From the sequence record MK327940.1: a DNA stretch of 64,000 bases. One strand, 5' to 3'. The notes beneath the pieces are model-generated. The model saw only the letters and a list, made by a program, of their open reading frames with translations, searched no databases and was not told the DNA's origin. Both the position numbers and the translations under genes were made by a program. The stretch's first letter is position 1. Every line of letters starts with the position of its first letter. This stretch comes from Escherichia phage vB_EcoM_G29. Below are positions 1 to 61,062 of the stretch, piece after piece.

Positions 1-371
1 ATTAAAATTTTTTCATCAAGTCGTTGTTGACTCAATTTAATAGCTGATTTGCATGGATTATAATCATTTTTCCATTCTACTGGAATATCGCTGATGTCAG
101 GAACTTCAGTATCTTTTATACTGAACCCGCGTTTTAAGCATTCCGTTATAATGTCCGATTGACGCTTTCGCAAAAATTCTAACTTATCGTAAAAGAAAGT
201 AACATGACCAGAACCTAAAATAAATTTAGAAGATATTTTAAAATCTTTAACGCGCTTACCGTTTGCCACATGCTTACGAACTATACCAAAAACGCGTGGC
301 AATTCACGGTATTCTGCGATTAAATGTTGATCAGCAAGTTCAGATACTAAAGTCAAATTAATACGAGTCAT
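1..371 (-). CDS. denV: endonuclease V (pyrimidine-dimer DNA glycosylase); C-terminal end cut by window edge
   Basis: Hand translation from ATG at 371 gives [29 protein letters not shown]..., matching my memory of the T4 DenV N-terminus; ORF runs off position 1. Confidence 0.8.
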
Positions 372-430
372 TTTATCCCTCCAAGTAACTGTGAATATAC
401 TATCACAATTCTAGGAGAAAGTAAACCACT

Positions 431-961
<531 letters not shown>

Positions 962-1417
962 TTAAAAGAGGCTGTTCATTATTCGGTAAAGTGAAGGACC
1001 CATCACATATTGCCACTGAGTACGAGGAATAAGAGCAAAAGCATCCATCTCTGGAATCATAACGCCATCTTTATTTTCAAAATAAGACTCACAACGGCAA
1101 TTTCTGAACATCTCATGCTCTACTGGAATCGTATAATAAAATAACTGTAAGTCTTTATTACTAGAATATTTAAATACACCTAGGTCTTCTAGAAGGTCTG
1201 GATTATAATTGTTAAAACCAGTCTCTTCTGAGCATTCTCTTCGTGCTGCATCTAATGCGCTTAAATCAGAATTTTCTACACGCCCCTTTGGAATATCCCA
1301 GCGATGTGCCATCATTCCAGGCTTACGAGAACCAGTAACTCGTCCCATAAATAAATCTTTATCTTCTGTCATAAAGATAATACCAGCTGATAGTGTTTTC
1401 ATTTTAATTTCCTGCAT
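962..1417 (-). CDS. nudE: Nudix hydrolase
   Basis: 151 aa with Nudix box GRVENSDLSALDAARRECSEETG; position next to e as in T4; a second in-frame ATG at 1402 preceded by AGGAAA may be the true start. Confidence 0.85.
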   Translation of the reverse strand: MQEIKMKTLSAGIIFMTEDKDLFMGRVTGSRKPGMMAHRWDIPKGRVENSDLSALDAARRECSEETGFNNYNPDLLEDLGVFKYSSNKDLQLFYYTIPVEHEMFRNCRCESYFENKDGVMIPEMDAFALIPRTQWQYVMGPSLYRIMNSLF

Positions 1418-1887
1418 TCAGTGATAAAATTATTTAAATTTTGAGTATATTTCTTTTCATCAAAAATCTTTTGCTGCCTACGTAACCGCCATGGCATTTC
1501 AATGAACACGCACCATATTCCTGATAGTACTGCTGCTGTAAAAATATTAACAAGTATAATTAAAAGAATCCAATCTTCCGTTCTGCCTACTGGACTTTCT
1601 CCAAAGAAGCAAAATACAAATGATGTCACAGGAAAACTAATAATATACCACAGAATAACCTTCTTATCTGTGAACCAATCAGCGTTCGTTAACTTAGCAC
1701 GACCATTTTGAATACACACGAATTTATCATCTGTTACAGTAGATGGCTTAACTGCTTGATATCCCATTCTAAACTCCCTAATTAATCGTTTCTTTGTATC
1801 TTCAGAACAGCCGCTCCAGTCAACTCTATCGACTGAAATGCCATCGTCCCCATCATCTAAATCATACCAGAGAGTTTTTAAAATCAT
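1399..1887 (-). CDS. hypothetical protein, C-terminal transmembrane segments (e.2-e.8-like region)
   Basis: 162 aa track ORF; hydrophobic stretches; start overlaps the upstream stop as ATGA. Confidence 0.6.
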   Translation of the reverse strand: MILKTLWYDLDDGDDGISVDRVDWSGCSEDTKKRLIREFRMGYQAVKPSTVTDDKFVCIQNGRAKLTNADWFTDKKVILWYIISFPVTSFVFCFFGESPVGRTEDWILLIILVNIFTAAVLSGIWCVFIEMPWRLRRQQKIFDEKKYTQNLNNFITECRKLK

Positions 1888-2258
1888 TTGATTTTCCTAC
1901 AATCATTCACGAATTCTTTCATTGATTCATTTTCAATATAAGACATGTAGTTATTATATTCTTTTAATTGTATTTTGTAATCCTTTTTTCTTTGCCAATT
2001 TATTTTAAAATTATCATAATGAAAATATAAAATGATACTAAAGAATGAAAATAATGAAATTGCTATAGTATAATGAAGTTCACTCCAAACTTCTATTATA
2101 TCTACTATACCGCTGACGTTACTGCGGATGTTTAAAATAATACAGTCAATCATTAATCCAATAAGACTACCAGCAAGAGCTGCAGCCAACGCCACAGCAA
2201 AAATTAAAAATGACTCAGAAAAAGAATATTTGACTTTATTTAGTTTTGGCTTTTGCAT
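1884..2258 (-). CDS. hypothetical small membrane protein
   Basis: 124 aa track ORF with long hydrophobic segments; translationally coupled to neighbours. Confidence 0.6.
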   Translation of the reverse strand: MQKPKLNKVKYSFSESFLIFAVALAAALAGSLIGLMIDCIILNIRSNVSGIVDIIEVWSELHYTIAISLFSFFSIILYFHYDNFKINWQRKKDYKIQLKEYNNYMSYIENESMKEFVNDCRKIK

Positions 2259-2632
2259 CGTGATTCCTTAACAAATTTCATAATTTCATTAAATTCATAC
2301 ATATTTAGTTTAAGCTGGTGTTCCTTTTTGATCTTTTTACACTGAGCTTTCCATTCACGTACACGTTTACGATAATGCCTTCCTTGATACCAATATCCTA
2401 CCCAATTTACAGGTACCAATAAAAATGGAACTACTAATGGAAGAATTAATACTAACAAAAATATTACGCCAGATTCAATATCAGTCATAAAGTCTATAAC
2501 CATTCCAACAATCAATAGAATTACAAATGATATAGCTGTCACAGGACCTATTAATACATCAGTAGGAATTAGCTGGCGCTTTAATTCATACTTCAACGGT
2601 TTACTTGGAAGGTATAGTGATGGTTTTGACAT
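2240..2632 (-). CDS. hypothetical small membrane protein
   Basis: Track ORF 2240..2653 begins at a non-ATG codon; I prefer the ATG at 2632 (MSKPSLYL...) preceded by AGGAA. Confidence 0.55.
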   Translation of the reverse strand: MSKPSLYLPSKPLKYELKRQLIPTDVLIGPVTAISFVILLIVGMVIDFMTDIESGVIFLLVLILPLVVPFLLVPVNWVGYWYQGRHYRKRVREWKAQCKKIKKEHQLKLNMYEFNEIMKFVKESRCKSQN

Positions 2633-3209
2633 ATTCTCTACATTCCTTAACAAATTTTTCTAGTAATAAATCGCTTTCAAAATTGGGATTTTCTACGAAT
2701 TTATCAAAAAGATCATCAACAATAGTTAAGATATTCTTTTTACTAAGAATACGTTTATTTTCATGCTTCGTTTCAGAATCAACTATAAGAGTAAAGAAAT
2801 ATTTCTTGCCCTGAAATTTTACAGTAGTATCAATATAAAATAAATTTGACTTTTGTAAATTACGTTTAAACCATGCGTCACTTAAACTATAAACACCGAG
2901 ATAATCAAAATCGTCGTTTAAATAACAAACTGACCATTCAGGAGAAATGAAATCAGTAAATTCAACATCAAAATCACATGTCAATGAATGAATTGATTCA
3001 ATACTGTTAATAAGTATTCCAGGACGTATTAAAGACTTTTTACCTCTAGAAAATCTTCCAGAAAGACTTTCATCAGTTTCATATGAAGAACCCCAATAAT
3101 AATTACGTCCTTCTGCCATACGTTTAAGAGCATTTAATAATTGGTCTGGAACATCAACTTGTCTTTGGAATTCTTCAAACATTGAATTGAAATCACTTTG
3201 CATTTTCAT
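2601..3209 (-). CDS. hypothetical protein
   Basis: 202 aa track ORF with ATG start and GGAG upstream. Confidence 0.6.
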   Translation of the reverse strand: MKMQSDFNSMFEEFQRQVDVPDQLLNALKRMAEGRNYYWGSSYETDESLSGRFSRGKKSLIRPGILINSIESIHSLTCDFDVEFTDFISPEWSVCYLNDDFDYLGVYSLSDAWFKRNLQKSNLFYIDTTVKFQGKKYFFTLIVDSETKHENKRILSKKNILTIVDDLFDKFVENPNFESDLLLEKFVKECREYVKTITIPSK

Positions 3210-3229
3210 TCCTATTTACTCCAAGTAAT

Positions 3230-3245
3230 AGGGGCCGAAGCCCCT
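3230..3245 (-). other. GC-rich UUCG-tetraloop hairpin immediately after a stop codon
   Basis: aggggccgaagcccct; 19-nt identical copy at 44298-44316 downstream of hoc; no U-run. Confidence 0.6.
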
Positions 3246-3250
3246 TATCA

Positions 3251-3844
3251 TTATTTCAGAGAATTAATATATTCCTGAACATCGGCAGAGGTAGTTTCAA
3301 CCCCAGAAATATTACCATTAAAGGTTTCAACTCGAGCAAGAGTATCTTCAATATCAACCTTAGTCAGTGCTGCAATTTCAACTACATCATCGGCAGTACT
3401 AATTCCGAGGGCATTCGCGGCGCGAGTTTCACGGATATATTCCAATTTAACTGCAAGTTCTTGGCGAGCATCATCTAACTCAACTACTTTCTTGGCGATT
3501 TCAATTCGCATTTCAGCATAACCATCAGCTTTAGTAGTCAACTGCTCAGCTGTTCGACGATATAGTAAACCAAGTTTAGCATGCATTGTTACATCTTGAC
3601 CTTCCGAAAGAAGCTTGCGAATTTCACGCTCTTTTGATTCGGCCTGCTTATTCTTTTCGACAATAAGTTCACGAATACGCTTTTCTTCATTAATAGATTT
3701 AACAGAAGCAGTTTTTAGATCTTTAATCTTATCAAGTAGTTTTGCTGCTGCAGCAGTATACTGTTCTTCAACAGATAGATTTTTAGCCATAGCAGAACCA
3801 AGTTTAGTGCGAATAAACTCAACAATTTTCTTCAGTGTGTTCAT
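3251..3844 (-). CDS. coiled-coil protein, possibly PspA/IM30-like
   Basis: 197 aa; long charged heptad-like stretches; resemblance to PspA judged by eye only; own early-type promoter upstream. Confidence 0.55.
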
Positions 3845-3871
3845 AGTATTTCCTTAGGTTGGTATAATTAG

Positions 3872-3899
3872 ATAATATCACGTTTTAATAGATTGTAAA
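3872..3899 (-). promoter_or_regulatory. early sigma70-type promoter for the 3251..3844 gene
   Basis: Minus strand: GTTTACA, 16 bp, TGaTATTAT. Confidence 0.55.
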
Positions 3900-3900
3900 C

Positions 3901-4236
3901 TTATTCTTCGTCTAGCTCGTCGATAAAGACGTTGATGGCCTCGATAACGGCATCATTGATAGCTAATAAAATAAAATCATCGTCAGTACCTTTAGAAGAT
4001 TCTAAAGCATTGATATATGCTTGGTTGGCGAGTTCCCAAGCCTTTTTAAAATAAGGAGCTTCATCATCAGGACAAATATCCCGCACGCCTTCAAAGATAC
4101 GTTTGGCATAATCTAACACCCATTGTACAGGCATGTTTTGAGAACGTTCGTTAAACTCTTTAAAGTCCTTAGATTCAAAAAGCTCTTTAGGATAATTATT
4201 TCTATTACAAAAAGCTTTACTAAAGTTACGTTTCAT
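3901..4236 (-). CDS. hypothetical protein
   Basis: 111 aa track ORF; early promoter with inverted repeat immediately upstream (4255-4292). Confidence 0.6.
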   Translation of the reverse strand: MKRNFSKAFCNRNNYPKELFESKDFKEFNERSQNMPVQWVLDYAKRIFEGVRDICPDDEAPYFKKAWELANQAYINALESSKGTDDDFILLAINDAVIEAINVFIDELDEE

Positions 4237-4254
4237 AATGTTTTCCTCATTTGT

Positions 4255-4292
4255 ATAGGCTCATAATATCTCAATCATGAGCCTATGTAAAC
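4255..4292 (-). promoter_or_regulatory. early promoter with inverted repeat bracketing the -10
   Basis: Minus strand: TTTACA (4287-4292), 17 bp, TATTAT (4264-4269); inverted repeat ataggctcat/atgagcctat at 4255-4264 and 4277-4286. Confidence 0.6.
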
Positions 4293-4556
4293 TTATTTCA
4301 TATTATTGAAATATTCTTCTGCGATTTCGTCGTTATCATGGTAAACTTTAGAAGACAGTTTAACATAACCTTCTGCTGTGAACATATTAATCACAACTTT
4401 TACAGTATACCACTGACCGTCTTCATTACCCATTACTGCGTAAGTTTCAAACATCGGATGATCAGGACCGATAACTTTAATATCATTCACTGTACGACCG
4501 AAATCTTCTGAAACGCATTTCATAAAGAAGTTGAACAGTTCGCCGTAATTATCCAT
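4293..4556 (-). CDS. hypothetical protein
   Basis: Track ORF 4293..4676 shortened to the ATG at 4556 (MDNYGELF...) because 4557-4676 holds a -35/-10 promoter and the GGAGA ribosome-binding site. Confidence 0.55.
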   Translation of the reverse strand: MDNYGELFNFFMKCVSEDFGRTVNDIKVIGPDHPMFETYAVMGNEDGQWYTVKVVINMFTAEGYVKLSSKVYHDNDEIAEEYFNNMK

Positions 4557-4599
4557 TTCATTCTCCAAGTTGTTTTCTGTATCAGTAGTTGATAGTTGT

Positions 4600-4650
4600 A
4601 TAGTACCATGGAAGAACAGAGATGTAAACAGTTTTGTGAAAAAATTTTTA
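4600..4650 (-). promoter_or_regulatory. early sigma70-type promoter for the 4293..4556 gene
   Basis: Minus strand: AT-rich upstream element, GTTTACA (4623-4629), 17 bp, TGgTACTAT (4600-4605). Confidence 0.6.
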
Positions 4651-4752
4651 GGGAATTCTAGGGCAGGGATGGGCAATTAAAGGATAGGATAATATATTAT
4701 AAAGGGTATAAACTAAATGATGCCTAGAGAGGTCCAGAAAGGCCTAGATACC

Positions 4753-4777
4753 AAAAAGCCCTATCATTTAGATAGGG
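4753..4777 (-). terminator. Rho-independent terminator
   Basis: Hairpin ccctatc/gataggg followed by U-run on minus strand, downstream of the 4786..5187 gene. Confidence 0.6.
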
Positions 4778-4785
4778 ATTTAAAA

Positions 4786-5187
4786 TTATTTACCTAGTTT
4801 ACTTATTATAGCTTCTGCAGCAGCTTTTAGCTTAGATGCAGTGTTAATACGATTTTTAATTTCAGTATACGCATCGCCAAGAACATCAAGGCTATCAGAA
4901 TAAACACTTACACTATTGCGTTCGCTATTTGAAATAGAACCTTTAGTTTTGCGGTCAAAATCGGTGTACACGTCTTGAAGATCGCGGGCTGCCTTCTTTG
5001 CATCATCCAATGCATCAAGAGCTTTATTCAAAGCATTAACGTATTTTTTAGTGTCGAACATATTCTTAGAAATTTTAACAGGTGCGCGTTCAGGAGTAGC
5101 TAACACAGATTTAGGAACCTGAGCGCCAGATGCCAATTTCTTAGAAATTTTGAAAAATGCTTTATTGAATTTATTTTCTTGACTCAT
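4786..5187 (-). CDS. hypothetical protein
   Basis: 133 aa track ORF; start overlaps stop of the small upstream ORF (ATGA); Rho-independent terminator downstream. Confidence 0.6.
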   Translation of the reverse strand: MSQENKFNKAFFKISKKLASGAQVPKSVLATPERAPVKISKNMFDTKKYVNALNKALDALDDAKKAARDLQDVYTDFDRKTKGSISNSERNSVSVYSDSLDVLGDAYTEIKNRINTASKLKAAAEAIISKLGK

Positions 5188-5348
5188 TGTAAAAGAACAT
5201 TATCGATGTTGTACATTTCAATAGCTTTAGCTTTCCACTTAAGAAAATCGCCGCGGTCTTTTGGGTCCAATTGGAAGAATACTTTAGTAAGATCTGCTTC
5301 AGATGGTAATTTTGCTGCTTCGGTTAAAAATTCGGCATAGGTTTTCAT
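5184..5348 (-). CDS. small protein with capsid-targeting-sequence-like N-terminus (internal-protein-like)
   Basis: Hand-translated 54 aa MKTYAEFLTEAAKLPSEADLTKVFFQLDPKDRGDFLKWKAKAIEMYNIDNVLLQ; below the 60-aa track cutoff; N-terminus matches the T4 internal-protein motif MKTYQEFIAE. Confidence 0.5.
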   Translation of the reverse strand: MKTYAEFLTEAAKLPSEADLTKVFFQLDPKDRGDFLKWKAKAIEMYNIDNVLLQ

Positions 5349-5438
5349 TTAAAATCCTTGAAATAATTTATCGGTTGGTTATTAATTATTTATTACTTTG
5401 TTACTATCCGTAACAGCGTTATCCGAGTGATTCAAACT

Positions 5439-5465
5439 AAAAAGCCCCAACCTTTCGGTCGGGGC
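5439..5465 (-). terminator. Rho-independent terminator (GC hairpin plus U-run on minus strand)
   Basis: gccccaacctttcggtcggggc hairpin preceded on the plus strand by an A-run; same 31-bp element recurs at 5996-6026. Confidence 0.7.
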
Positions 5466-5473
5466 TAAGAATG

Positions 5474-5947
5474 TCATTTGATTTGTTTAGCAGACCAAAT
5501 GCGGTCTTTAATAATTTTTTGGATGTCTTCAACATACTCAAGAGAGTGAACATGTGGATTATCTTTGAAACTATAAGCACGGGCTAACTTTTGGCCTTCG
5601 GTTTTGATTACTAAAAGCTCTTTAAGGATAGCTTCATATTTAGCGATAATTCCTTTAACGATATTTTTTTCTTGTGCCGCTTTAGGATCTGCTTTAGGAG
5701 CAGGTTTACCCGAAGCCTTTGCAAAAGCAGCGCCAGTAGCAACTAAACTTTTCCAGGCCATACTAACTGCATTTCCCGTAAATCCTTCCGCTTTCATGTC
5801 GCGTGCAAACTGGAATCGCGATTCATCAGAAGCATCTTTATAGGAATATTTACCCGCGGCAATGGCAGCTTTTGCAACAGCTTGAATTTCGGTGCTAGAT
5901 GCTTCATTTAACACCGCTTCATTTAAAAATTGAGTATATGATTTCAT
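5474..5947 (-). CDS. internal head protein-like (capsid-targeting-sequence N-terminus)
   Basis: Start moved to ATG 5947 (MKSYTQFLNEAV...); TATAAATA late promoter at 5986-5993 and terminator at 5996-6022 lie inside the longer track ORF. Confidence 0.65.
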   Translation of the reverse strand: MKSYTQFLNEAVLNEASSTEIQAVAKAAIAAGKYSYKDASDESRFQFARDMKAEGFTGNAVSMAWKSLVATGAAFAKASGKPAPKADPKAAQEKNIVKGIIAKYEAILKELLVIKTEGQKLARAYSFKDNPHVHSLEYVEDIQKIIKDRIWSAKQIK

Positions 5948-5985
5948 CTTATTTCCTGTTTTAATTTGTAGATTTAATATACTAA

Positions 5986-5993
5986 TATTTATA
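5986..5993 (-). promoter_or_regulatory. T4 late promoter upstream of the internal-protein-like gene
   Basis: Plus-strand tatttata equals minus-strand TATAAATA, about 40 nt upstream of ATG 5947. Confidence 0.7.
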
Positions 5994-5995
5994 CC

Positions 5996-6022
5996 AAAAA
6001 GCCCCAACCTTTCGGTCGGGGC
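5996..6022 (-). terminator. Rho-independent terminator, second copy of the same element
   Basis: Identical hairpin and A-run; sits between the stable-RNA/tRNA region and the late promoter of the internal-protein gene. Confidence 0.7.
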
Positions 6023-6039
6023 TAAGCCTTGCGGCAACC

Positions 6040-6330
6040 TTGTCGGGGTTCCACCTGCTAAGGCAAGTGTTTGTACGAAACGCCGGGATTCGAACCCGGT
6101 TATTAAGTAGTTGACGCTACTCAATATTTTAAAAGGCCATATCTCGACCATATCCGAACGTTCCGTCAAAAACGCTACTCGGCTTACGGCAAAGATATTT
6201 CCTCGAATCGATAATTCGGTGCGCCGTTTCTGCTGTGATAGTAAAGAGCCAGAACACAGTAAAACTGTGGGAGGAAACTATACTCCAGGGAACATCAGTC
6301 CGACGACTTACCGGTAGCGACCCGGTTTCT
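6040..6330 (-). ncRNA. candidate small stable RNA(s), by analogy to T4 species 1/2 (rnaC/rnaD)
   Basis: Non-coding gap downstream of the tRNA cluster on the same strand; contains a tRNA-like T-arm (ccgggattcgaacccgg) but no complete cloverleaf. Confidence 0.25.
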
Positions 6331-6680
6331 TAATATTCTTTTAAAGAATCAATATATTCACGGCGTTTACGCCACAAATCAATTGCTTCATACGCGGATT
6401 CAGCATTTCGAATTAGCCGGCATTTATGTAAAGACTTATGATTTTGATATTGTGTAGATAACGGAATTGTATCTAAAAGGTCTTTACGATCAAAATATTC
6501 GTAACCATCTAAACCAAATGAACGATTTTTGAGAAATTGCCAATGACCATATTCGTTTTCGACATAAACATAATCTGCATGCTGATAAAGCAAATTAATT
6601 ACACGTTCAGAAATAACAGTATCATTATGATTAAAATAGAATGTTAAATCATGAACTACTAAATAAACATTACCTTTCAT
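6330..6680 (-). CDS. hypothetical protein
   Basis: 116 aa track ORF with GAGGAAA ribosome-binding site, immediately downstream of tRNA-Arg. Confidence 0.55.
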   Translation of the reverse strand: MKGNVYLVVHDLTFYFNHNDTVISERVINLLYQHADYVYVENEYGHWQFLKNRSFGLDGYEYFDRKDLLDTIPLSTQYQNHKSLHKCRLIRNAESAYEAIDLWRKRREYIDSLKEY

Positions 6681-6698
6681 ATTTTCCTCACTTATAAT

Positions 6699-6774
6699 TG
6701 GTCGAGGCAGTAGGGATCGAACCTACGACCTAGGACTTAGAAGGTCCTTGCTCTTCCTTCTGAGCTATGCCCCG
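6699..6774 (-). tRNA. tRNA-Arg (anticodon UCU)
   Basis: Cloverleaf folded by hand; anticodon loop cuUCUaa; T-loop TTCGATC; encoded CCA. Confidence 0.85.
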
Positions 6775-6778
6775 TAAT

Positions 6779-6854
6779 TGGGGTGACCGATGGGAGTCGA
6801 ACCCATGACTACGAGAATCACAATCTCGAGTTCTACCAACTGAACTACGGCCAC
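6779..6854 (-). tRNA. tRNA-His (anticodon GUG)
   Basis: Hand fold; anticodon stem cgaga/tctcg, loop uuGUGau; discriminator C73; no encoded G-1. Confidence 0.75.
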
Positions 6855-6968
6855 ATTAATACCTACTCCAACAATCAAGATGTCTTCACACGAAATTAAG
6901 AGAAGAGTGATCAGTTCAACCCCTATAATCGCGTCAAGTAGATATTAATGTGACAGTTGTCACAAATT

Positions 6969-7043
6969 TGGCGGACGTGATAGGATTCGAACCTATAACC
7001 AATCGCTTAACAGGCGATCGCTCTGCCATTGAGCTACACATCC
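6969..7043 (-). tRNA. tRNA-Asn (anticodon GUU)
   Basis: Hand fold; anticodon stem atcgc/gcgat, loop cuGUUaa; encoded CCA. Confidence 0.8.
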
Positions 7044-7047
7044 AAAT

Positions 7048-7134
7048 TGGTGGGGAGTGGTGGAGTCGAACCACCCGAGTCGCAATGACAATGGATTTAC
7101 AGTCCACACCGCTACCTCTACGGGATAACTCCCC
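7048..7134 (-). tRNA. tRNA-Tyr (anticodon GUA), long variable arm
   Basis: Hand fold; 87 nt; anticodon loop cuGUAaa; encoded CCA. Confidence 0.75.
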
Positions 7135-7143
7135 AAATTAATT

Positions 7144-7218
7144 TGGTGGCCCTGGGTGGAATTGAACCACCATCTGGCGATTATGAGTCGCTTGCTTGAA
7201 CCTTCCAGCTACAGGGCC
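7144..7218 (-). tRNA. tRNA with CAU anticodon (elongator Met or lysidine-modified Ile)
   Basis: Hand fold; anticodon loop cuCAUaa; T-stem ggtgg/ccacc; position matches the T4 tRNA-Ile slot. Confidence 0.75.
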
Positions 7219-7219
7219 T

Positions 7220-7295
7220 TGGTGCTGATTGACGGAATCGAACCGCCGACCTTCTCATTACAAGTGAGTTGCTCTACCTACTGAGCTAAATCAGC
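7220..7295 (-). tRNA. tRNA-Thr (anticodon UGU)
   Basis: Hand fold; anticodon loop cuUGUaa; encoded CCA. Confidence 0.85.
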
Positions 7296-7300
7296 AAAAC

Positions 7301-7390
7301 TGGCGGAGGCGATAGGATTTGAACCTATGAGTCGCCGGAGCGACTGCCGGTTTTCAAGACCGGTGCATTAAACCACTCTGCCACGCCTCC
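7301..7390 (-). tRNA. tRNA-Ser (anticodon UGA), long variable arm
   Basis: Hand fold; 90 nt; anticodon stem ccggt/accgg, loop cuUGAaa. Confidence 0.85.
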
Positions 7391-7392
7391 AG

Positions 7393-7466
7393 TCTCCGTG
7401 GCAGGATTTGAACCTACGACATTCTGCTCCCAAAGCAGACGCTCTACCAAACTGAGCTACACGGAG
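7393..7466 (-). tRNA. tRNA-Pro (anticodon UGG), CCA not encoded
   Basis: Hand fold; anticodon loop uuUGGga; 3' end abuts the tRNA-Ser 5' end, as in the T4 Pro-Ser dimeric precursor. Confidence 0.85.
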
Positions 7467-7476
7467 TAAATTAAAT

Positions 7477-7550
<74 letters not shown>

Positions 7551-7555
7551 AAATT

Positions 7556-7642
7556 TGGTGCGAGAAGTGGGACTCGAACCCACAAGGAAATCATTCCGCA
7601 GCATTTTAAGTGCTGTGCCTTTACCAATTTGGCCATTCTCGC
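7556..7642 (-). tRNA. tRNA-Leu (anticodon UAA), long variable arm
   Basis: Hand fold; anticodon stem cagca/tgctg, loop cuUAAaa. Confidence 0.85.
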
Positions 7643-7643
7643 G

Positions 7644-7716
7644 CTGGGAATAAAGGACTCGAACCTTTGCATCCTGGAATCAAAATCCAGTGCCTTACCA
7701 ACTTGGCTAATTCCCA
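7644..7716 (-). tRNA. tRNA-Gln (anticodon UUG), CCA not encoded
   Basis: Hand fold; anticodon stem ctgga/tccag, loop uuUUGau; one nucleotide from the tRNA-Leu 5' end (Gln-Leu dimer). Confidence 0.85.
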
Positions 7717-7813
7717 ATTATTAACAAAGGCTCTTAAGCAAGAACCCTTGATGATAGAGGGTATTAATCAGTGCGATATGAGTTAATAATAACAAATAAT
7801 TCTTAAAGCATAT

Positions 7814-8101
7814 TTACCATTTATAATAATACATATTTACGATGCATTCAAGACCCAAAGGATTCTTGAAAATATCATATTCAAGAGGACCTTTTTCTGT
7901 TTCAATAAAGAAATCAAAATTTACTGTATTAAATTTACGTTCTTCCTTCACTAATTTAACTTGAGAAGATGAACGGTCAATGTAAACCTTTTCAACTTCA
8001 AAACATGTTAAAATGCCATAATCATCAATCAAAGCTTTAGCCGCGTCTTGATCATATTTATATCCATTTTCAATGGATGATACTTTCGCATAAAGAATCA
8101 T
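7814..8101 (-). CDS. hypothetical protein
   Basis: 95 aa track ORF in the operon upstream of the tRNA cluster. Confidence 0.55.
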   Translation of the reverse strand: MILYAKVSSIENGYKYDQDAAKALIDDYGILTCFEVEKVYIDRSSSQVKLVKEERKFNTVNFDFFIETEKGPLEYDIFKNPLGLECIVNMYYYKW

Positions 8102-8103
8102 TA

Positions 8104-8502
8104 TCAGCCTTCATCAACAATAGTGTGAGTATTAGCATTTACGATTTGCCACCAATCAAAGCGATTAGAATCCATCGGTTTGTTTTCATTTTCTTTGATA
8201 ATGTCACGGAGTTCATCTTCAGAGAATGCTTTAGCGATTAAATCGGTATACCCACCACGTGGATAATAATTATCACCTGCAAACAAAAGGAAATTTACCT
8301 TCCCGGAAGGAACATACGCTTCCTTAGGATACTTGTTTCCTGCGTGGTCAACCACTTCAATATAACGGTAAGGAATATCGGTTCTTTCAACCCATTGCCA
8401 TGCCGCCGCAGGGGAATCGAAAGCATCTACACCTAAACGATTATCTTCATCTTTAGACGGATTATTTTCGTAATCCGCATATACATAATATTCAACGTTC
8501 AT
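8104..8502 (-). CDS. hypothetical protein
   Basis: 132 aa track ORF; stop abuts the next start. Confidence 0.55.
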   Translation of the reverse strand: MNVEYYVYADYENNPSKDEDNRLGVDAFDSPAAAWQWVERTDIPYRYIEVVDHAGNKYPKEAYVPSGKVNFLLFAGDNYYPRGGYTDLIAKAFSEDELRDIIKENENKPMDSNRFDWWQIVNANTHTIVDEG

Positions 8503-8687
8503 TATTCACCTTTAGAAATTTTATCCATAACAATAGCAATTAAACCAATTAAAAATGCTACTACAAGTGAAAAAACATTTTCTGCCGTAGTCAATAATCC
8601 GCATATAAATCCAACAAACATTGAAAAACTGAAAGCGGAAGCAGAAATTGCAATAGCAACATTTCGAATTAATTCACAACGTTTCAT
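8502..8687 (-). CDS. hypothetical small membrane protein
   Basis: 61 aa, mostly hydrophobic; GAGGAG ribosome-binding site; early promoter with inverted repeat upstream. Confidence 0.5.
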   Translation of the reverse strand: MKRCELIRNVAIAISASAFSFSMFVGFICGLLTTAENVFSLVVAFLIGLIAIVMDKISKGE

Positions 8688-8706
8688 TTTATTCTCCTCA
8701 GTAGTA

Positions 8707-8745
8707 GATAGGGTAATAGTATCACTACCCTATCTAAAAGTAAAC
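8707..8745 (-). promoter_or_regulatory. early sigma70-type promoter with inverted repeat bracketing the -10 (PeSL-like cassette)
   Basis: Minus strand: GTTTAC, about 17-18 bp, TGaTACTAT; inverted repeat gatagggta/taccctatc at 8707-8715 and 8726-8734. Confidence 0.6.
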
Positions 8746-8979
8746 TTATTTTTTACGAAAAATTGATTTATTTTCTGCTGCCCATTTTTCAATAACTGCA
8801 GCAGGACCAGTAACAACAATTTTATCACCGTAATCTTCTGCGGCGAGTTGACCGAAATTATCTAATGCATCACGAAGAACTCCATGAGGCATTTCACCCA
8901 TTTTATCTTTCTTGCCAGTGTAAATAAACTCAACTTTTACATCAGCAGTTTCAGCAATAAATTCTTGGTAAGTTTTCAT
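8746..8979 (-). CDS. internal head protein-like (capsid-targeting sequence MKTYQEFIAE)
   Basis: Start placed at the ATG giving MKTYQEFIAETADV... (77 aa); exact match to the T4 internal-protein targeting motif. Confidence 0.7.
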   Translation of the reverse strand: MKTYQEFIAETADVKVEFIYTGKKDKMGEMPHGVLRDALDNFGQLAAEDYGDKIVVTGPAAVIEKWAAENKSIFRKK

Positions 8980-9005
8980 TTTGATTTCCATTTGGTTTTG
9001 TTTTG

Positions 9006-9050
9006 ATAGGGTAATAGTATCACAACTAAAACCCTATGTAAACAACTTTG
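9006..9050 (-). promoter_or_regulatory. early promoter with inverted repeat (PeSL-like cassette)
   Basis: Minus strand: TTTACA (9037-9042), 17 bp, TACTAT (9014-9019) with TGa; inverted repeat atagggt/accctat. Confidence 0.6.
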
Positions 9051-9055
9051 TGAAA

Positions 9056-9313
9056 TTATTTTAAATCTTCTAATCGTTTCTTCATCTTAGAACCATTTTT
9101 AGCAATTTCTCCTGCATCGGAGCATAATGCTAAAAGTGCTTTAACTTTAGTTTGGTCTCCTTTAAAAGATGAAGGATCGACCGCAGCAGCAAGTTCTTTA
9201 ATACGAGAGAAAAGACGCTCAGCTTCAGCTAAAGCCATTCCAAGCTTTACTTCCATACCGTGGGAAGATTCAGTGATAGTAGTTTTTGTAGCAAACTCTT
9301 TGAAAGTTTTCAT
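9056..9313 (-). CDS. internal head protein-like (MKTFKEFATK N-terminus)
   Basis: 85 aa track ORF; N-terminus resembles the capsid-targeting sequence; ipI-equivalent position beside 57B. Confidence 0.6.
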   Translation of the reverse strand: MKTFKEFATKTTITESSHGMEVKLGMALAEAERLFSRIKELAAAVDPSSFKGDQTKVKALLALCSDAGEIAKNGSKMKKRLEDLK

Positions 9314-9335
9314 TTTTATTTTCCTAATTAATTTT

Positions 9336-9380
9336 GATGAGGTAATAGTATCACTACCTCATCAGTATGTAAACAACTTT
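9336..9380 (-). promoter_or_regulatory. early promoter with inverted repeat (PeSL-like cassette)
   Basis: Minus strand: TTTACA (9368-9373), 17 bp, TACTAT (9345-9350); inverted repeat gatgaggta/tacctcatc with paired changes relative to the 8707 copy. Confidence 0.6.
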
Positions 9381-9386
9381 GTGAAA

Positions 9387-10071
<685 letters not shown>

Positions 10072-10072
<1 letters not shown>

Positions 10073-10797
10073 TATAGTACCTTTAGCGTATTTTTAATTT
10101 TAGAAAAAAGTTCTTCAAGAGAACCATCGTTTGTAATTACTAAATCGCCATCACGAATTGGCAATCCAGCTTCTGTAATATGTGTATCATTGGATTTTTG
10201 ACCAGGACGAACTACATGAATTACTGTAGCACCCATCGCCCTAGCCGCATCCATTTCATGATCTTGACGGGTATCAGGAACGATATAATAATCATAACCT
10301 GAGTTAAATTTATCAAGATAATCTAAAGCAAATAATTTTATCCAGTACATGCGGTCGAAGTTATTAACAATCAAATCCGTACCTAGGGCTTGCATCAGAC
10401 GACGGACTGACCATTGATCTTCAATATTATTTATAACGTCAATAATCTTGTTAAATGCTACGGAATTAACTGATTCTTGTCCTTCGTCATCAAAAACAAA
10501 CACACCTTTAATTGGGCTTTTACCATTAAGATAGCAAAATGCTTGTTCCATAATCGTGATTACTTCTAATTTAGTTAGATTTAAATTAGTCTCACGATCA
10601 TAGTCAATTCCTTCAAACTCTTTACGAGTTAAGCAAGGATAGTCGGTATTTGCTGCAAATACTCCCCATGCATAAGCCAATGCATCCTTAATAGGACCAG
10701 CAAGTTGGTATTTAACTGCAGAATAATTGCTCATGATAAAATCAGCAGTAGTATCTTTTCCACTACGCTTTACACCGCTTAAAAAGATTAGTTTCAT
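10072..10797 (-). CDS. 1: deoxynucleoside monophosphate kinase
   Basis: 241 aa; P-loop GVKRSGKDT; T4 gene 1 length and synteny. Confidence 0.92.
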
Positions 10798-10846
10798 ATG
10801 TTTCTCCTCAAATTTAGTTAAGATTATAACACATGAAACTGAAGCA

Positions 10847-11377
10847 TTAAACTTCCGCTATAATTTTTCCATCTTTTTCTACTTGAAAATACGTATAAGG
10901 AATCGTTGCTGTACATACTAAAGCCGGGTCTGAATCTTCTGTGTAGCTAAATTCTACTTCAGACAGGTCAGAAACCCAAGGCTTATAAAAATTTATTGAC
11001 ATCACGATTTCAGTTTTGCTATTATCTAAAATGTAAAGCGTAATGTATTCAGGACCTGTTTTTTGGGCAGTATTTTCACCTGTAAGATAGTTGCTAGTTC
11101 CTAGCATCCATTCATACATTCCTATCCATGACTTAAGTTCTTCATCAACTATAAATCTCACGATGAGTGGATCGTACTCAAATGTAGCACCTGGACGTTG
11201 TGCTCGGCCCAGTCCAAACGGCCCAGTCACGGTATCAGTAACAGGTATTCTAATTCCTGGAATAGGAACTGACTGAGCATTTAAAGTAAAAGCAGATGTA
11301 GTATTACTATGTGGTATTGATACTACAAAGTTAGTTGTATTTGCTTGGTTAAAAATTTGTTGCAGTGCTTGCGACAT
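10847..11377 (-). CDS. 3: tail completion / sheath stabiliser gp3
   Basis: Start moved to the ATG at 11377 (MSQALQQIF..., 176 aa) with GAGGAA upstream; synteny 1-3-2-4. Confidence 0.8.
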   Translation of the reverse strand: MSQALQQIFNQANTTNFVVSIPHSNTTSAFTLNAQSVPIPGIRIPVTDTVTGPFGLGRAQRPGATFEYDPLIVRFIVDEELKSWIGMYEWMLGTSNYLTGENTAQKTGPEYITLYILDNSKTEIVMSINFYKPWVSDLSEVEFSYTEDSDPALVCTATIPYTYFQVEKDGKIIAEV

Positions 11378-11483
11378 ATATTCCTCATAATGCTTTATAA
11401 CTGTTGGTGGTATAATGGGTCTAAGTCCCTTCCATTCAATTCCATTTAGAACAAACAACAGAAAAGAATGGAAGATAATAGAA

Positions 11484-12308: not shown

Positions 12309-12760
12309 TATGCCCCCTTAAAGCCAAGAGCTCGTAATCCATCTTCTGTTAAAATTCTAAATTTTATTCCACGCTTTTCAGCTAAAGCTTGAGCTGCTTT
12401 CCATTTGTCAGTATTAACGGAATATGTATAAATTTCATTCATAAATCTTTTCTTCGCTGCAGTTGTTAGATGTGCTGGTTTAACTGGTGGTTGTGTTTCT
12501 TTTTTAGGTTTTATTTCAATAAAAAATTCTTGTCCAGAAGAATCTTTCATCCAAATATCCATGAAGTATCTACGTTTTTTCCCTTCTGCATTACAAAAAT
12601 AAGGAATTACTGCTGTTTCACTACCCCATGCAATAATTTCTGGATTTTTATCTAACCATTCAAAAAAGAATTTTTCCCAATTTGATCTATACGTAATTTT
12701 TTTAGGGTCACCTCTATACTTTGATATATTTTTAGGAACCCATTTTCCAGAATATGCCAT
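12308..12760 (-). CDS. 4: head completion protein gp4
   Basis: 150 aa track ORF; synteny; late promoter TATAAATA (minus) at 12787-12794. Confidence 0.85.
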
Positions 12761-59010: not shown

Positions 59011-61062
59011 TTATCCTTGAACGAACTTGTAAGGCATGTTTGTAATATCTATGCAAGACGCAATAATTCCAAGAGATGATTCTACTTTCTGTTTAACATT
59101 TGATGAAACAAATGATGCAAAGTCAACTCTATCTTCTATATCACCTGTCATTGTAACTACTTCGCCGGTTTCCATTAAACGGTCACCGTCATAAATTACT
59201 GATTCGGTGAGTTCTTCGGTGGTCATAACTTCAGCTTGAATAAGCTTGTTGTTAGTTTTGACTGTTCCATCATTGTAAGATGCATCAGTTATTTTATTAA
59301 CTTTGACCATTAATCCACGTGGCAAAATGACTTCCATTTCATTTGAAGGCGCTAAACTTCCACCGGGTAAAACAACATTGACTTTATCAGCCCCAGTAAT
59401 AACCCATCCAATTCCGACTAAATTATCGCTAGAATTAACAAGCCCTTCATCATTTTTATCGATAGAAATGTTTAGACGCTTTTCATCTGGTAAAACACCA
59501 ACAGCTGAATCAGTCATCCAAGTACCAAAAATGTTTGGATATAATGATGTTGATACAAAATTTCTAAAATAAAAAACTCGATTTTTTACCATTGCTTCGT
59601 ATATTGAAGGTAACATTCGTTGTGAACGATACAAAGTAATACCTTTTGGTAATCGTTCACCATTTTTAAAGGCTGAATCTAAATTATCAATAGCTTTTTC
59701 TATGTCAGATGCTGTCAAAATACTTGTACGCTCATCTGGATTATATAATCCCAAAAGAGCATTATTTATGTCTACATATCCTGAACCTACGTATTCACGA
59801 ATTCCGCGTTTTTGTGCTGGTGTGTATTTAGATGAATCTTTATTTTCGACTATAGGATGTAATGACCATCCAGCTGTAAGAGCATATCCACGTAATTCTC
59901 TTCGAATAATCTTTGTTTTTATTGCATTCCAAGAATTTTGTACTAACTCATTTGCAGCATCTTGGTTTAAATGCGAATGTTTGTTAATATTTCTTTCAAA
60001 CCAAGCACCTTTATATTTTTCTAAAGTATTATCGACGATAGAAGCAATAGTTTCTAAAGTTTTTATTGAAGTAATAGATTCTTTTCGTAATTTTTCTAAA
60101 GCTTTATTTTTTATTTCTGCATTAATAATGGATTCTTTATCTTCAGGAATTATAGAAGCTTCTCTGAATGCCATCCCAGCTGTAACACTGCTAAGAGCAT
60201 TCTCTAGTGCAAATCCTGAAGTAGAAATTACCGTTAATTCATTAGAATCAGAAATTAAAGGCGCATCAGCGGGTTTATTTAATTCTGCTGCTGAAGCCTC
60301 AAATTTTTGAAACATCGGTGTTTCAAATCTAGAAGATTCCAATGACTGACTTTGTGCAATTGCTCTACGGGAAATTTTAACTTTAACGATTACAGCTTGG
60401 TCAGAACGTTTATCATTTTCTTGTGCAATAGATGCTGCAATTGCCTCATTTTTGGTTACTTGAGCTCCGGTATCTTTATTGATATAAACATCACCGACCT
60501 TCGATTCAACTTTAGTAAAGAGCTCGGTACTAATTTCCGGAACTCCTGGAATGTCTTCTAGTGATACATTTTTGCGATGTATAAGAATATATGCATACTT
60601 TTTATCATAATCCCAGAGTTCCTTAAGAAGGACGTATCTGCCACCTGAACGACTACGGATAAGTCTATCAGCAATAACTTGAATTTGTCGAGCTTGATCA
60701 GCGGTTTTAGACTTAAGAATACGAAGCATACAAGCATCAATTTTATACTGACGCATTGTTTGCATTGCAACAGTAAAAACTGAATTGATATAATTAATTG
60801 GGCTTGGACCAAGACCTTTTAATTTAGCAATTGAACCTTTAGCGGTTAATGTAAAAGGAACAATATGCATCATTTTATCGCCCATTTTTAAATCGCGATT
60901 AGTATCACCTCCAGATGTATAGGTACATAAACGAAAGCCTGGTTGTTCAATTGCATCATCAACATGAACTGAAAAAATTTGCGGTATTTTCTTCTTTGGA
61001 TTTAAGTTTGTAATCGGAAGAGTAGTATCTTCGTCAAATAATTCTGTAATAAGTTCCATCAT
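59011..61062 (-). CDS. alt: ADP-ribosyltransferase Alt (packaged, modifies host RNA polymerase)
   Basis: 683 aa; matches my memory of T4 Alt; LYRS...FVSTSL...EMEVILPRG; late promoter TATAAATA (minus) at 61083-61090. Confidence 0.9.
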   Translation of the reverse strand: MMELITELFDEDTTLPITNLNPKKKIPQIFSVHVDDAIEQPGFRLCTYTSGGDTNRDLKMGDKMMHIVPFTLTAKGSIAKLKGLGPSPINYINSVFTVAMQTMRQYKIDACMLRILKSKTADQARQIQVIADRLIRSRSGGRYVLLKELWDYDKKYAYILIHRKNVSLEDIPGVPEISTELFTKVESKVGDVYINKDTGAQVTKNEAIAASIAQENDKRSDQAVIVKVKISRRAIAQSQSLESSRFETPMFQKFEASAAELNKPADAPLISDSNELTVISTSGFALENALSSVTAGMAFREASIIPEDKESIINAEIKNKALEKLRKESITSIKTLETIASIVDNTLEKYKGAWFERNINKHSHLNQDAANELVQNSWNAIKTKIIRRELRGYALTAGWSLHPIVENKDSSKYTPAQKRGIREYVGSGYVDINNALLGLYNPDERTSILTASDIEKAIDNLDSAFKNGERLPKGITLYRSQRMLPSIYEAMVKNRVFYFRNFVSTSLYPNIFGTWMTDSAVGVLPDEKRLNISIDKNDEGLVNSSDNLVGIGWVITGADKVNVVLPGGSLAPSNEMEVILPRGLMVKVNKITDASYNDGTVKTNNKLIQAEVMTTEELTESVIYDGDRLMETGEVVTMTGDIEDRVDFASFVSSNVKQKVESSLGIIASCIDITNMPYKFVQG

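What the first reader, a model, noticed from the sequence alone, without database searches (positions are those of the whole stretch)
5184..5947. Second capsid-targeting-sequence gene pair at a different locus, one of them unannotated and translationally coupled
A 157-aa protein (MKSYTQFLNE...) driven by a late TATAAATA promoter and a 54-aa protein (MKTYAEFLTE...) missed by the ORF track both carry targeting-sequence-like N-termini. The 54-aa ORF stop overlaps the start of the 133-aa gene at 4786..5187 (ATGA), suggesting a co-expressed pair. Here denV is directly adjacent to e, whereas in T4 ipII and ipIII sit between them, so the internal-protein genes appear to have been relocated or exchanged in this phage.
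Basis: partly seen in the sequence, partly recalled or inferred. Interest (0 to 1): 0.5.

Follow-up and report, generated by a model that had tools for sequence, protein, structure and literature searches.

The report
Two candidate internal-protein genes, one frameshifted
This T4-like phage carries, at a site that is empty in T4, two late-gene cassettes for proteins with the N-terminal tag that sends T4 'internal proteins' into the capsid; the reported 54-aa/133-aa 'coupled pair' is one 187-aa gene broken by a single-base deletion.

Summary
The window is Escherichia phage vB_EcoM_G4500 (Tequatrovirus).

- **One gene, not two.** The 54-aa and 133-aa ORFs are a single 187-aa gene. Nearly all of the 164 related phage records read it in one frame. 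G4500 lacks one base at window 5198/5199. The ATGA overlap is an internal Met55 codon that now overlaps the out-of-frame stop.
- **Tag is real.** The 157-aa gene and the 187-aa gene both start with a T4-type capsid targeting sequence ending in L-x-E. Only 3 of 563 ORFs in the window match the strict motif.
- **Cassette structure.** Each gene is a self-contained cassette bounded by terminators. They sit between the rnaC terminator and e.8, a site empty in T4. Related phages carry none, one or both.
- **No link to ipII/ipIII.** There is no sequence similarity beyond the tag. denV next to e is the commonest layout.
- **Virion evidence.** A homologue of the 157-aa protein differing at 3 of 157 codons was detected in purified phage fD1 particles, but that preparation was impure.

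The genes are most likely unrecognised injected internal proteins at a third Ip locus. Their target is unknown.

The parts
5474..5947 (-). 157-aa gene (G4500_00143) for a candidate internal head protein. Residues 1-15 are the targeting tag, with L-N-E sites ending at E10 and E15. The predicted mature protein is about 15.5 kDa with pI 9.6.
   Evidence: phrog_2280, E 2e-60; 511 phage records, every listed row 'hypothetical'. The fD1 homologue g140 is listed as particle-associated by LC-MS/MS.
5903..5947 (-). Coding sequence for the capsid-targeting tag of the 157-aa protein: MKSYTQFLNE|AVLNE|A.
   Evidence: (the L-x-E before the conserved 'ASSSDV' domain is kept in homologues of 38-82% identity)
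5986..5993 (-). Exact T4 late-promoter motif TATAAATA, 39 nt before the ATG. It is formed across the junction GGTAT|AAATA.
5995..6023 (-). Terminator of the rnaC/tRNA unit (AGCCCCGACCGAAAGGTTGGGGCT plus a T-run). This is the left copy of the direct repeat that bounds the 157-aa cassette.
5438..5466 (-). Second copy of the same terminator (31 nt identical), ending the 157-aa cassette.
5387..5394 (-). AATAAATA, a 7-of-8 late-promoter-like motif. It lies 39 nt before the ATG of the 187-aa gene, the same spacing as in the 157-aa gene. RB14 has GATAAATA here.
   Evidence: Its function is inferred.
4786..5348 (-). Disrupted 187-aa gene (intact as DalCa_133 and RB14ncORF136c), a second candidate internal protein.
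5184..5348 (-). 54-aa ORF: codons 1-50 of the 187-aa gene (tag MKTYAEFLTE|A) plus 4 out-of-frame codons (VLLQ) and a stop.
   Evidence: (phrog_2280 positions 1-52)
5198..5199 (.). Site of the 1-nt deletion, between these two bases. The coding strand reads GATAAT[A]GTTCT. It is not in a homopolymer.
4786..5187 (-). 133-aa ORF: Met55 to Lys187 of the 187-aa gene. It has no targeting tag and no Shine-Dalgarno sequence.
   Evidence: (phrog_2280 positions 59-178)
4754..4777 (-). Terminator of the 187-aa cassette (CCCTATCTAAATGATAGGG plus a T-run), followed by GGTATCTAGGCC, which rejoins the T4-like sequence upstream of e.8.

Best explanation
The interval between the rnaC terminator and the e.8 promoter is empty in T4. 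In this phage it holds two independent gene cassettes.

**Cassette 1 (157 aa).** It has its own late promoter and ends in a duplicated copy of the rnaC terminator.

**Cassette 2 (187 aa in relatives).** It has a near-consensus late promoter and its own terminator.

**Proposed mechanism.**
1. Both pre-proteins begin with a T4-type capsid targeting sequence, MK(S/T)Yx(E/Q)FLxE.
2. Late in infection the tag directs them into the prohead scaffolding core.
3. The gp21 prohead protease removes the tag after L-x-E.
4. The basic mature proteins stay with the packaged DNA and are injected with it.
5. By analogy with T4 Ip1-3, they most likely disarm a host defence such as a Type IV (GmrSD-type) restriction enzyme.

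**State in G4500.** A single-base deletion after codon 50 splits the second gene.
- One product is a 54-aa tag-bearing stub.
- The other is a tagless 133-aa ORF that starts at internal Met55.
- The ATGA overlap is accidental.
- The C-terminal part, if made at all by reinitiation, should not be packaged, so this allele is probably non-functional.
- The deletion may instead be a sequencing error.

**Shown:** the motifs, the gene structure, the cassette junctions, the distribution among phages and the frameshift.

**Inferred:** packaging, cleavage, injection and the anti-defence role.
For: **One gene.**
- tblastn finds 164 records. In the 60 sampled rows, 58 are single-frame, about 561 nt.
- A single missing base separates G4500 from DalCa.
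- phrog_2280 aligns the 54-aa ORF to positions 1-52 and the 133-aa ORF to positions 59-178.

**Tag.**
- Only 3 of 563 ORFs match the strict pattern.
- The L-x-E site sits at E10, as in T4 IPII and IPIII.
- The tag is retained in homologues of only 38-43% identity from Yersinia and Klebsiella phages.

**Late expression.** An exact TATAAATA precedes the 157-aa gene. AATAAATA precedes the 187-aa gene at the identical 39-nt spacing.

**Physical properties.** Both have pI 9.4-9.6, like IPI-III. At 187 aa the second gene is close to IPIII, which is 193 aa.

**Real coding genes.** Synonymous versus non-synonymous codon differences are 13:4 and 14:3.

**Virion association.** fD1 g140 differs from the 157-aa protein at 3 of 157 codons. 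It is scored PPAP at the strict threshold in LC-MS/MS of purified particles. Its neighbours g138 and g139 are not (PMC8309999).

**Cassette anatomy.**
- T4 has one terminator followed by GGTATCTAAGCC.
- fD1 has the 157-aa cassette between two 38-bp repeats.
- RB14 has only the 187-aa cassette, between GGGCTTTTT repeats.
- G4500 has both.
- Of 442 records with a cassette, 118 carry both in tandem.

**Function analogy.** Ip1, Ip2 and Ip3 each inhibit a distinct GmrSD enzyme and share only the leader (PMC12373910).
Against: - There is no direct evidence of cleavage, encapsidation or injection for either protein.
- The fD1 preparation also contained 113-137 phage proteins and 672 host proteins. 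Detection there proves expression but only weakly proves packaging.
- The 187-aa gene lacks an exact late promoter.
- Bona fide ip genes, here and in T4, sit behind early-type GTTTAC promoters with stem-loops. These two genes do not.
- The lack of internal L/I-x-E sites is not statistically meaningful.
- No fold or sequence match gives any functional hint.
- Profile comparison does not support homology between the 157-aa and 187-aa families, despite their shared PHROG.
Confidence: 0.75

Rival explanations
1. The one-base deletion is a sequencing or assembly error in MK327945.1. The real phage has an intact 187-aa gene, so there is no 54-aa or 133-aa product at all.
For: - The flanking 592 nt are otherwise identical to DalCa.
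- G4500, OE5505 and G9062 have the same naming style and annotation format and all come from Germany, suggesting a common source. OE5505 shows frameshifts in both cassette genes, one of them in an A6 run.
- G9062 has split ORFs elsewhere.
Against: - The deletion is not in a homopolymer.
- Over about 49 kb compared with DalCa, the only other isolated 1-nt indel is in a non-coding T-run. No structural gene is frameshifted, so the assembly is not generally indel-prone.
- Independent frameshifts in RB69 and OE5505 fit the decay of a dispensable gene equally well.
Confidence: 0.35
2. One reading: the 54-aa and 133-aa ORFs are two genuine genes co-expressed by ATGA translational coupling.
For: - The ATGA overlap is present.
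- Termination-reinitiation at such overlaps is known in bacteria (general knowledge).
- The GenBank record annotates both ORFs.
Against: - The split is seen in G4500 only. 58 of the 60 sampled relatives have one continuous ORF.
- The 133-aa start is an internal Met of that ORF, with no Shine-Dalgarno sequence.
- The last 4 codons of the 54-aa ORF are out-of-frame sequence.
Confidence: 0.04
3. The N-terminal similarity is a by-product of recombination between ip-like 5' ends. Alternatively, it is a signal for something other than capsid targeting. Either way the proteins are ordinary non-virion late proteins.
For: - Every listed phage record and PHROGs call them unknown or hypothetical.
- The promoter context differs from known ip genes.
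- The proteomic support comes from an impure preparation.
Against: - The tag and its L-x-E site are conserved across homologues whose bodies have diverged to 38-43% identity.
- The motif is specific within the window.
- In T4 this roughly 10-residue sequence is sufficient to package foreign proteins (Mullaney and Black 1996, as cited in PMC3012670).
Confidence: 0.15
4. A programmed -1 ribosomal frameshift in the T-rich stretch GTTCTTTTACA restores full-length 187-aa protein in G4500.
For: A run of U residues lies between the deletion and the stop codon.
Against: - There is no canonical X XXY YYZ heptamer.
- Relatives do not need a frameshift.
- The deletion is unique to this record.
- The downstream RNA structure was not examined.
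Confidence: 0.03

Closest known systems
T4 internal proteins IPI, IPII and IPIII (Ip1-3)
   Same: - N-terminal targeting tag MKT(Y/F)xEF.. ending in (L/I)-x-E.
- Small and basic (pI about 9-9.6).
- Dispensable, with patchy distribution among T-even phages.
- The 187-aa protein matches IPIII in size and charge and has a single L/I-x-E site at E10.
   Different: - No sequence similarity beyond the tag.
- Different PHROGs.
- A different locus (rnaC-e.8, not denV-e or 57B-trna.4).
- Late-promoter and terminator cassettes instead of early promoter and stem-loop contexts.
- Packaging, injection and target are untested.
Ip4 and Ip5 and the polymorphic ip genes of T2, T6 and RB phages (Repoila et al. 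1994; RB14 annotation)
   Same: - Non-homologous proteins that share only the tag.
- Swapped in and out of variable loci.
- This window also carries an Ip5-type gene (9056..9313, phrog_3499) and another ip gene (8746..8979, phrog_8111) at the classical ipI locus.
   Different: - RB14 Ip4 is also 157 aa but is unrelated in sequence.
- The RB14 annotators named Ip4 and Ip5 but left the 187-aa gene as ncORF136c, hypothetical.
- A 2025 study speaks of 'two Ip loci' and tested ip1-10. Neither N-terminus (MKSY, MKTYAEFL) appears in its supplements.
PeSL mobile regulatory cassettes of T4-type phages (Arbiol et al. 2010, PMC2839356)
   Same: - Non-essential genes in hyperplastic regions are bounded by repeated regulatory sequences that include terminators.
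- Recombination between the repeats explains presence and absence of the genes.
- Here the 38-bp terminator+GGTAT repeat flanks the 157-aa cassette, and GGGCTTTTT flanks the 187-aa cassette.
   Different: - PeSLs are strong sigma-70-like early promoters plus stem-loops.
- Here the repeats are terminators.
- The promoter is a late TATAAATA assembled at the junction.
- No mini-circle or recombination event was observed here.
RB69ORF149c and RB69ORF148c
   Same: The same 187-aa gene at the same locus. It is likewise annotated as two overlapping ORFs because of a 1-nt deletion, at codon 123.
   Different: The frameshift is at a different position, so it is an independent event or error.

Membership tests
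T4-type CTS-directed internal head proteins | N-terminal capsid targeting sequence resembling MKTYQEFIAE | tested here: met
   The N-termini are MKSYTQFLNE and MKTYAEFLTE. Only 3 of 563 ORFs in the window match the strict pattern, and the third is an annotated ip gene.
T4-type CTS-directed internal head proteins | gp21 prohead-protease site (L/I)-x-E at the end of the tag | tested here: met
   L-N-E ends at E10 and E15 in the 157-aa protein. L-T-E ends at E10 in the 187-aa protein. This is the same position as in IPII and IPIII. Only the motif was tested, not cleavage.
T4-type CTS-directed internal head proteins | Expression when proheads assemble (late transcription) | tested here: inconclusive
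   An exact TATAAATA precedes the 157-aa gene. Only a 7-of-8 match precedes the 187-aa gene. No transcript data are available.
T4-type CTS-directed internal head proteins | Physical presence of the processed protein inside mature heads | tested here: inconclusive
   The fD1 homologue g140 is listed as particle-associated by LC-MS/MS. The preparation held 113-137 phage proteins and 672 host proteins, and N-terminal processing was not examined. There are no data for the 187-aa protein.
T4-type CTS-directed internal head proteins | Injection into the host with the DNA, and an anti-defence activity | not testable with these tools
   This needs infection experiments. Only the analogy to Ip1-3 is available (PMC12373910).
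T4-type CTS-directed internal head proteins | Dispensable, patchily distributed, small basic protein | tested here: met
   Relatives carry none, one or both cassettes. Frameshifted alleles occur in isolated, propagated phages. pI is 9.4-9.6.
T4-type CTS-directed internal head proteins | Encoded in one of the two recognised Ip loci (denV-e, or 57B-trna.4) | tested here: not met
   The genes lie between the rnaC terminator and e.8. This feature is typical rather than strictly defining.
Translationally coupled two-gene operon (ATGA overlap) | Two ORFs conserved as separate genes in relatives | tested here: not met
   58 of the 60 sampled relatives encode a single continuous 187/188-aa ORF.
PeSL regulatory cassettes | Sigma-70-like early promoter plus stem-loop flanking the mobile gene | tested here: not met
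   The flanks are terminator repeats and the promoter is of late type. PeSL-like elements do flank the ipI-locus genes at 8980-9055 and 9314-9390.

The most novel reading that the evidence does not exclude
The rnaC-e.8 junction is a third, so far unrecognised internal-protein locus of T-even phages, present in at least 442 sequenced genomes. Its late-promoter and terminator cassettes (phrog_2280 proteins) encode injected inhibitors of host defences, for example GmrSD variants that have no known Ip partner. The recurrent frameshift alleles in G4500, OE5505 and RB69 would then reflect loss of these genes where they are useless or costly.
Probability: 0.3. Interest if true: 0.6.

Novelty: new member of a known kind. 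Interest (0 to 1): 0.35.

Why it matters
All three T4 internal proteins were recently shown to be specific inhibitors of different GmrSD Type IV restriction enzymes. That study also found five further GmrSD systems active against T-even phages for which none of ip1-10 was an inhibitor (PMC12373910).

Two widespread tag-bearing families have been overlooked. The 157-aa family is in 511 phage records and the 187-aa family in 164. Every listed row is annotated as hypothetical (or 'phage protein'), and they lie outside the two recognised Ip loci. They are obvious new candidates for such inhibitors, and they help explain host-range differences among therapeutic T4-like phages.

The practical lesson is smaller. 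The 'coupled pair' is a frameshift artefact. The same mis-annotation exists in RB69 (ORF148c and ORF149c) and in OE5505.

Tried and rejected
**Database searches that gave nothing**
- Pfam and NCBIfam: nothing above threshold for either protein.
- PDB sequence profiles: nothing.
- AlphaFold2 models were of moderate (157 aa, pLDDT 72.6) and low (187 aa, pLDDT 60.6) confidence. Foldseek against PDB and BFVD returned only self-family or insignificant hits.

**Homology tests that failed**
- BLASTP of the 157-aa protein against IPIII and Ip4, and of the 157-aa against the 133-aa ORF: no similarity.
- hhalign of the 157-aa family against the 187-aa family: probability 21%, so homology is not supported despite the shared PHROG.
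- BLASTP of the 187-aa protein against the 177/178-aa Klebsiella and Yersinia members: not significant.

**Ideas tested and dropped**
- Depletion of internal gp21 sites as evidence for life inside the prohead: not significant, P = 0.37 and 0.68.
- Strict mutual exclusion between ipIII and the new cassettes ('exchange'): rejected, with up to 43 co-occurrences.

**Literature dead ends**
- Repoila et al. 1994 and Rifat et al. 2008 are not held in the library.
- The fPS-2/fPS-65 paper has no proteomics.
- Petrov et al. 2010 does not discuss internal proteins.
- The original fHe-Yen9-01 paper is not held.

**Other**
- Rfam found only the 11 tRNAs in 4200-7900.
Full report
**Identity and context**

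The window is nt 64001-128000 of Escherichia phage vB_EcoM_G4500 (MK327945.1), a Tequatrovirus, matched at 100% identity. All genes from 1 to 12760 are on the minus strand. In transcription order the layout is:
- gene 1, 57A, 57B;
- two ip genes (9056..9313 and 8746..8979);
- trna.4, trna.3 and trna.2;
- the tRNA cluster, then the rnaD/rnaC-like RNAs;
- the three ORFs of the finding;
- e.8 to e.2, nudE, e and denV.

T4 differs in two respects. It has ipII and ipIII between denV and e. It has nothing but 285 bp of intergenic DNA between rnaC and e.8.

**Checking the observation**

- the 157-aa ORF at 5474..5947 (MKSYTQFLNE...);
- an exact TATAAATA at 5993..5986;
- the 54-aa ORF at 5184..5348 (MKTYAEFLTE...);
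- the ATGA overlap with the 133-aa ORF at 4786..5187;
- the denV-e adjacency.

The N-terminal motif is specific. Among 563 ATG-initiated ORFs of at least 40 aa in the window, a strict tag pattern hits only these two and the annotated ip gene at 8746..8979. A looser pattern adds only Alt, MELITELFDE, at 59011..61059. One detail is wrong: the 54-aa ORF is annotated in GenBank as G4500_00142.

**The 54-aa/133-aa 'pair' is one gene**

- PHROG profile 2280 (178 positions) aligns the 54-aa ORF to positions 1-52 and the 133-aa ORF to positions 59-178. It aligns the 157-aa protein end to end.
- tblastn with the concatenated 54+133 sequence finds 164 phage records. In the 60 sampled rows, all but G4500 and OE5505 are a single-frame hit of about 561 nt, annotated as one hypothetical protein (for example DalCa_133 and RB14ncORF136c).
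- DalCa is identical to G4500 over the 592 aligned nt apart from one base. On the coding strand GATAATAGTTCT has become GATAAT-GTTCT, between window 5198 and 5199.
- The intact protein reads ...YNIDN50-SSFT-M55SQEN.... In G4500 the frame runs ...YNIDN-VLLQ-stop, and the stop overlaps the codon for Met55.
- The 133-aa ORF is therefore exactly residues 55-187 (54 + 133 = 187). The ATGA overlap is accidental, and no Shine-Dalgarno sequence precedes that ATG.

**Is the deletion real?**

This cannot be settled without reads.
- Against an error: the deletion is not in a homopolymer. Across about 49 kb compared with DalCa, the only other isolated 1-nt indel lies in a non-coding T-run at about 6127. 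No structural gene is broken.
- For an error: OE5505 has the same naming style, annotation format and country of origin as G4500. It has frameshifts in both cassette genes: -1 in an A6 run at codon 101 of the 187-aa gene, and +1 T at codon 34 of the 157-aa gene.
- RB69 has its own -1 at codon 123, which produced the overlapping ORF149c and ORF148c.

Recurrent independent frameshifts fit either occasional sequencing errors or decay of a dispensable gene.

**Anatomy of the locus**

The junctions are clean.
- T4: ...rnaC-CTTAGCCCCGACCGAAAGGTTGGGGCTTTTT-GGTATCTAAGCC... (running into the e.8 early promoter).
- fD1 (157-aa cassette only): the same terminator, then GGTAT|AAATA..., the 157-aa gene, a second copy of the 38-bp terminator+GGTAT, then CTAGGCC....
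- RB14 (187-aa cassette only): terminator, then |AGTTTGAATC..., the 187-aa gene, CCCTATCTAAATGATAGGGCTTTTT|GGTATCTAGGCC.
- G4500, DalCa and G9062: both cassettes in tandem.

Three conclusions follow:
- The 157-aa cassette is bounded by a 38-bp direct repeat. In the window the copies at 5438-5469 and 5995-6026 are 31 nt identical.
- The late promoter TATAAATA is formed across the GGTAT|AAATA junction.
- The 187-aa cassette is bounded by GGGCTTTTT.

By megablast, 442 records carry at least one cassette and 118 carry both in tandem. Combining this with the 164 tblastn records for the 187-aa gene gives roughly 46 records with the 187-aa cassette only and roughly 278 with the 157-aa cassette only. 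This resembles PeSL-mediated modular shuffling in T4-type hyperplastic regions (PMC2839356). The difference is that the repeats here are terminators and the promoter is of late type. By contrast, the classical ip genes here and T4 ipII and ipIII sit behind GTTTAC early-type promoters with stem-loops.

**What the proteins are**

Neither protein has a Pfam, NCBIfam or PDB match.

*The 157-aa family.* It occurs in 511 phage records: Tequatrovirus, RB69-like phages at about 72% identity, and partial matches in Klebsiella phages. Every one of the 60 listed rows is 'hypothetical' or 'phage protein'. Homologues keep a tag ending in L-x-E (MKTYNEFLNE, MKSYAEFLTE, MLEYSEFLKE, MKFKEFLAE). A conserved helical domain follows (ASSSDV...AGKYSYKD..SDESRFQFARDMKAEGF...AWKSL), then a Pro/Lys-rich linker and a variable C-terminal helical hairpin.

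*The 187-aa family.* It is narrow, with nearly all full-length relatives 88% identical or more. Its low-confidence model shows the same layout: disordered tag, small helical domain, disordered linker and long helical hairpin.

*Relationship between the two.* hhalign does not support homology between the families. What they demonstrably share is the tag and the overall architecture.

*Properties.* Both are basic (pI 9.4-9.6), like IPI-III. The 187-aa protein has a single L/I-x-E site at E10, as do IPII and IPIII, though depletion of internal sites is not significant. Synonymous changes outnumber non-synonymous ones, 13:4 and 14:3, so both are real genes under constraint.

**Virion evidence**

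Yersinia phage fD1 carries the 157-aa cassette. Its g140 differs from the window protein at 3 of 157 codons. Table S3 of PMC8309999 lists g140 as a particle-associated protein at the strict LC-MS/MS threshold, while its neighbours g138 and g139 (e.8) are not listed. The preparation also contained 113-137 phage proteins and 672 host proteins. This shows expression and supports, but does not prove, encapsidation. I found no proteomic data for the 187-aa protein.

**Relation to ipII and ipIII**

There is no similarity to IPII, IPIII, IPI or RB14 Ip4 beyond the tag. The PHROGs also differ.

Direct denV-e adjacency is the commonest arrangement. 272 of 501 records hold at least 80% of the junction query in one place. 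Some others have a single ip gene inserted there.

A combined ipIII + 157-aa query gave 605 records and 648 places, so up to 43 records hold both (for example vB_Eco_F25). The two loci vary independently. 'Relocated' is wrong and 'exchanged' is too strong. The phage has a different complement of tag-bearing genes at a different variable site.

**Mechanism and function**

The best-supported model runs as follows:
1. late transcription;
2. tag-directed incorporation into the prohead core;
3. removal of the tag by gp21 after L-x-E;
4. retention with the DNA;
5. co-injection.

The tag alone suffices to package foreign proteins in T4 (Mullaney and Black 1996, cited in PMC3012670).

Function is inferred by analogy. 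Ip1, Ip2 and Ip3 each inhibit a different GmrSD Type IV restriction enzyme and share nothing but the leader. The same study speaks of 'two Ip loci', tested ip1-10, and found further active GmrSD systems with no inhibitor among them (PMC12373910). The rnaC-e.8 cassettes would be a third locus and two further candidate inhibitors.

In G4500 the frameshifted allele would give a packaged 44-residue stub after processing. At best it would also give a tagless, unpackaged C-terminal fragment. If the deletion is real, that is probably loss of function.

**Verdict**

The headline feature, an unannotated and translationally coupled pair, is a single-base frameshift in one gene, and the ipII/ipIII relocation idea does not hold. 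What remains is two unrecognised, widespread families of probable internal proteins in terminator-bounded late cassettes at a site empty in T4. That makes them new members of a known kind, of moderate interest.

Noticed in passing
window 6073-6166 (-): ARAGORN and the GenBank record call this a 94-nt tRNA-Lys(ttt). It aligns by eye, nearly base for base, with T4 rnaC (species 1 RNA), and the Rfam tRNA model does not reach threshold here. It is probably a mis-annotated rnaC homologue. G9062 annotates the same spot as 'tRNA-OTHER'.
   Followed up: partly
L005 (RB69 NC_004928) 9429-9991: RB69ORF149c (146 aa) and ORF148c (61 aa) overlap by 64 nt. Together they are the same 187-aa tag-bearing gene, split by a 1-nt deletion at codon 123. 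The reference annotation therefore hides a single gene.
   Followed up: yes
L006 (OE5505 NC_054926) 941-2063: Both cassette genes are frameshifted in this phage: +1 T at codon 34 of the 157-aa gene, and -1 in an A6 run at codon 101 of the 187-aa gene. Its naming and annotation style match G4500, so it may come from the same sequencing effort. This may mean indel errors or parallel gene loss.
   Followed up: partly
window 8980-9055 and 9314-9390 (-): Nearly identical 'TTTCACAAAGTTGTTTACATA...GTGATACTATTACC' elements precede each of the two ipI-locus genes. Each is an early-type promoter embedded in a stem-loop, which looks like a PeSL. T4 ipII and ipIII have the same kind of element. This contrasts with the late-promoter cassettes of the finding.
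   Followed up: partly
window 6330-6680 (-): A 116-aa ORF (phrog_3355, RB69ORF150c-like) sits between the rnaD-like RNA and tRNA-Arg. T4 has no such gene at this position. G9062, of the same species, lacks it.
   Followed up: no
window 59011-61059 (-): The Alt ADP-ribosyltransferase homologue begins MELITELFDE, the known divergent targeting tag. It served as a positive control for the loose motif scan.
   Followed up: no
L004 (RB14) 10852-11325; L009 (fD1) 2786-3259: Ip4 is also exactly 157 aa but unrelated in sequence. It occupies different positions relative to denV in different phages: next to e in RB14, which has no denV there, and upstream of denV in fD1. This shows further cassette mobility at the denV-e locus.
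   Followed up: partly
window 3860-4254: The e.7 region (3901..4236) is the one stretch of this neighbourhood with no megablast match to DalCa or G9062. It is another presence/absence polymorphism next to the cassette site.
   Followed up: no
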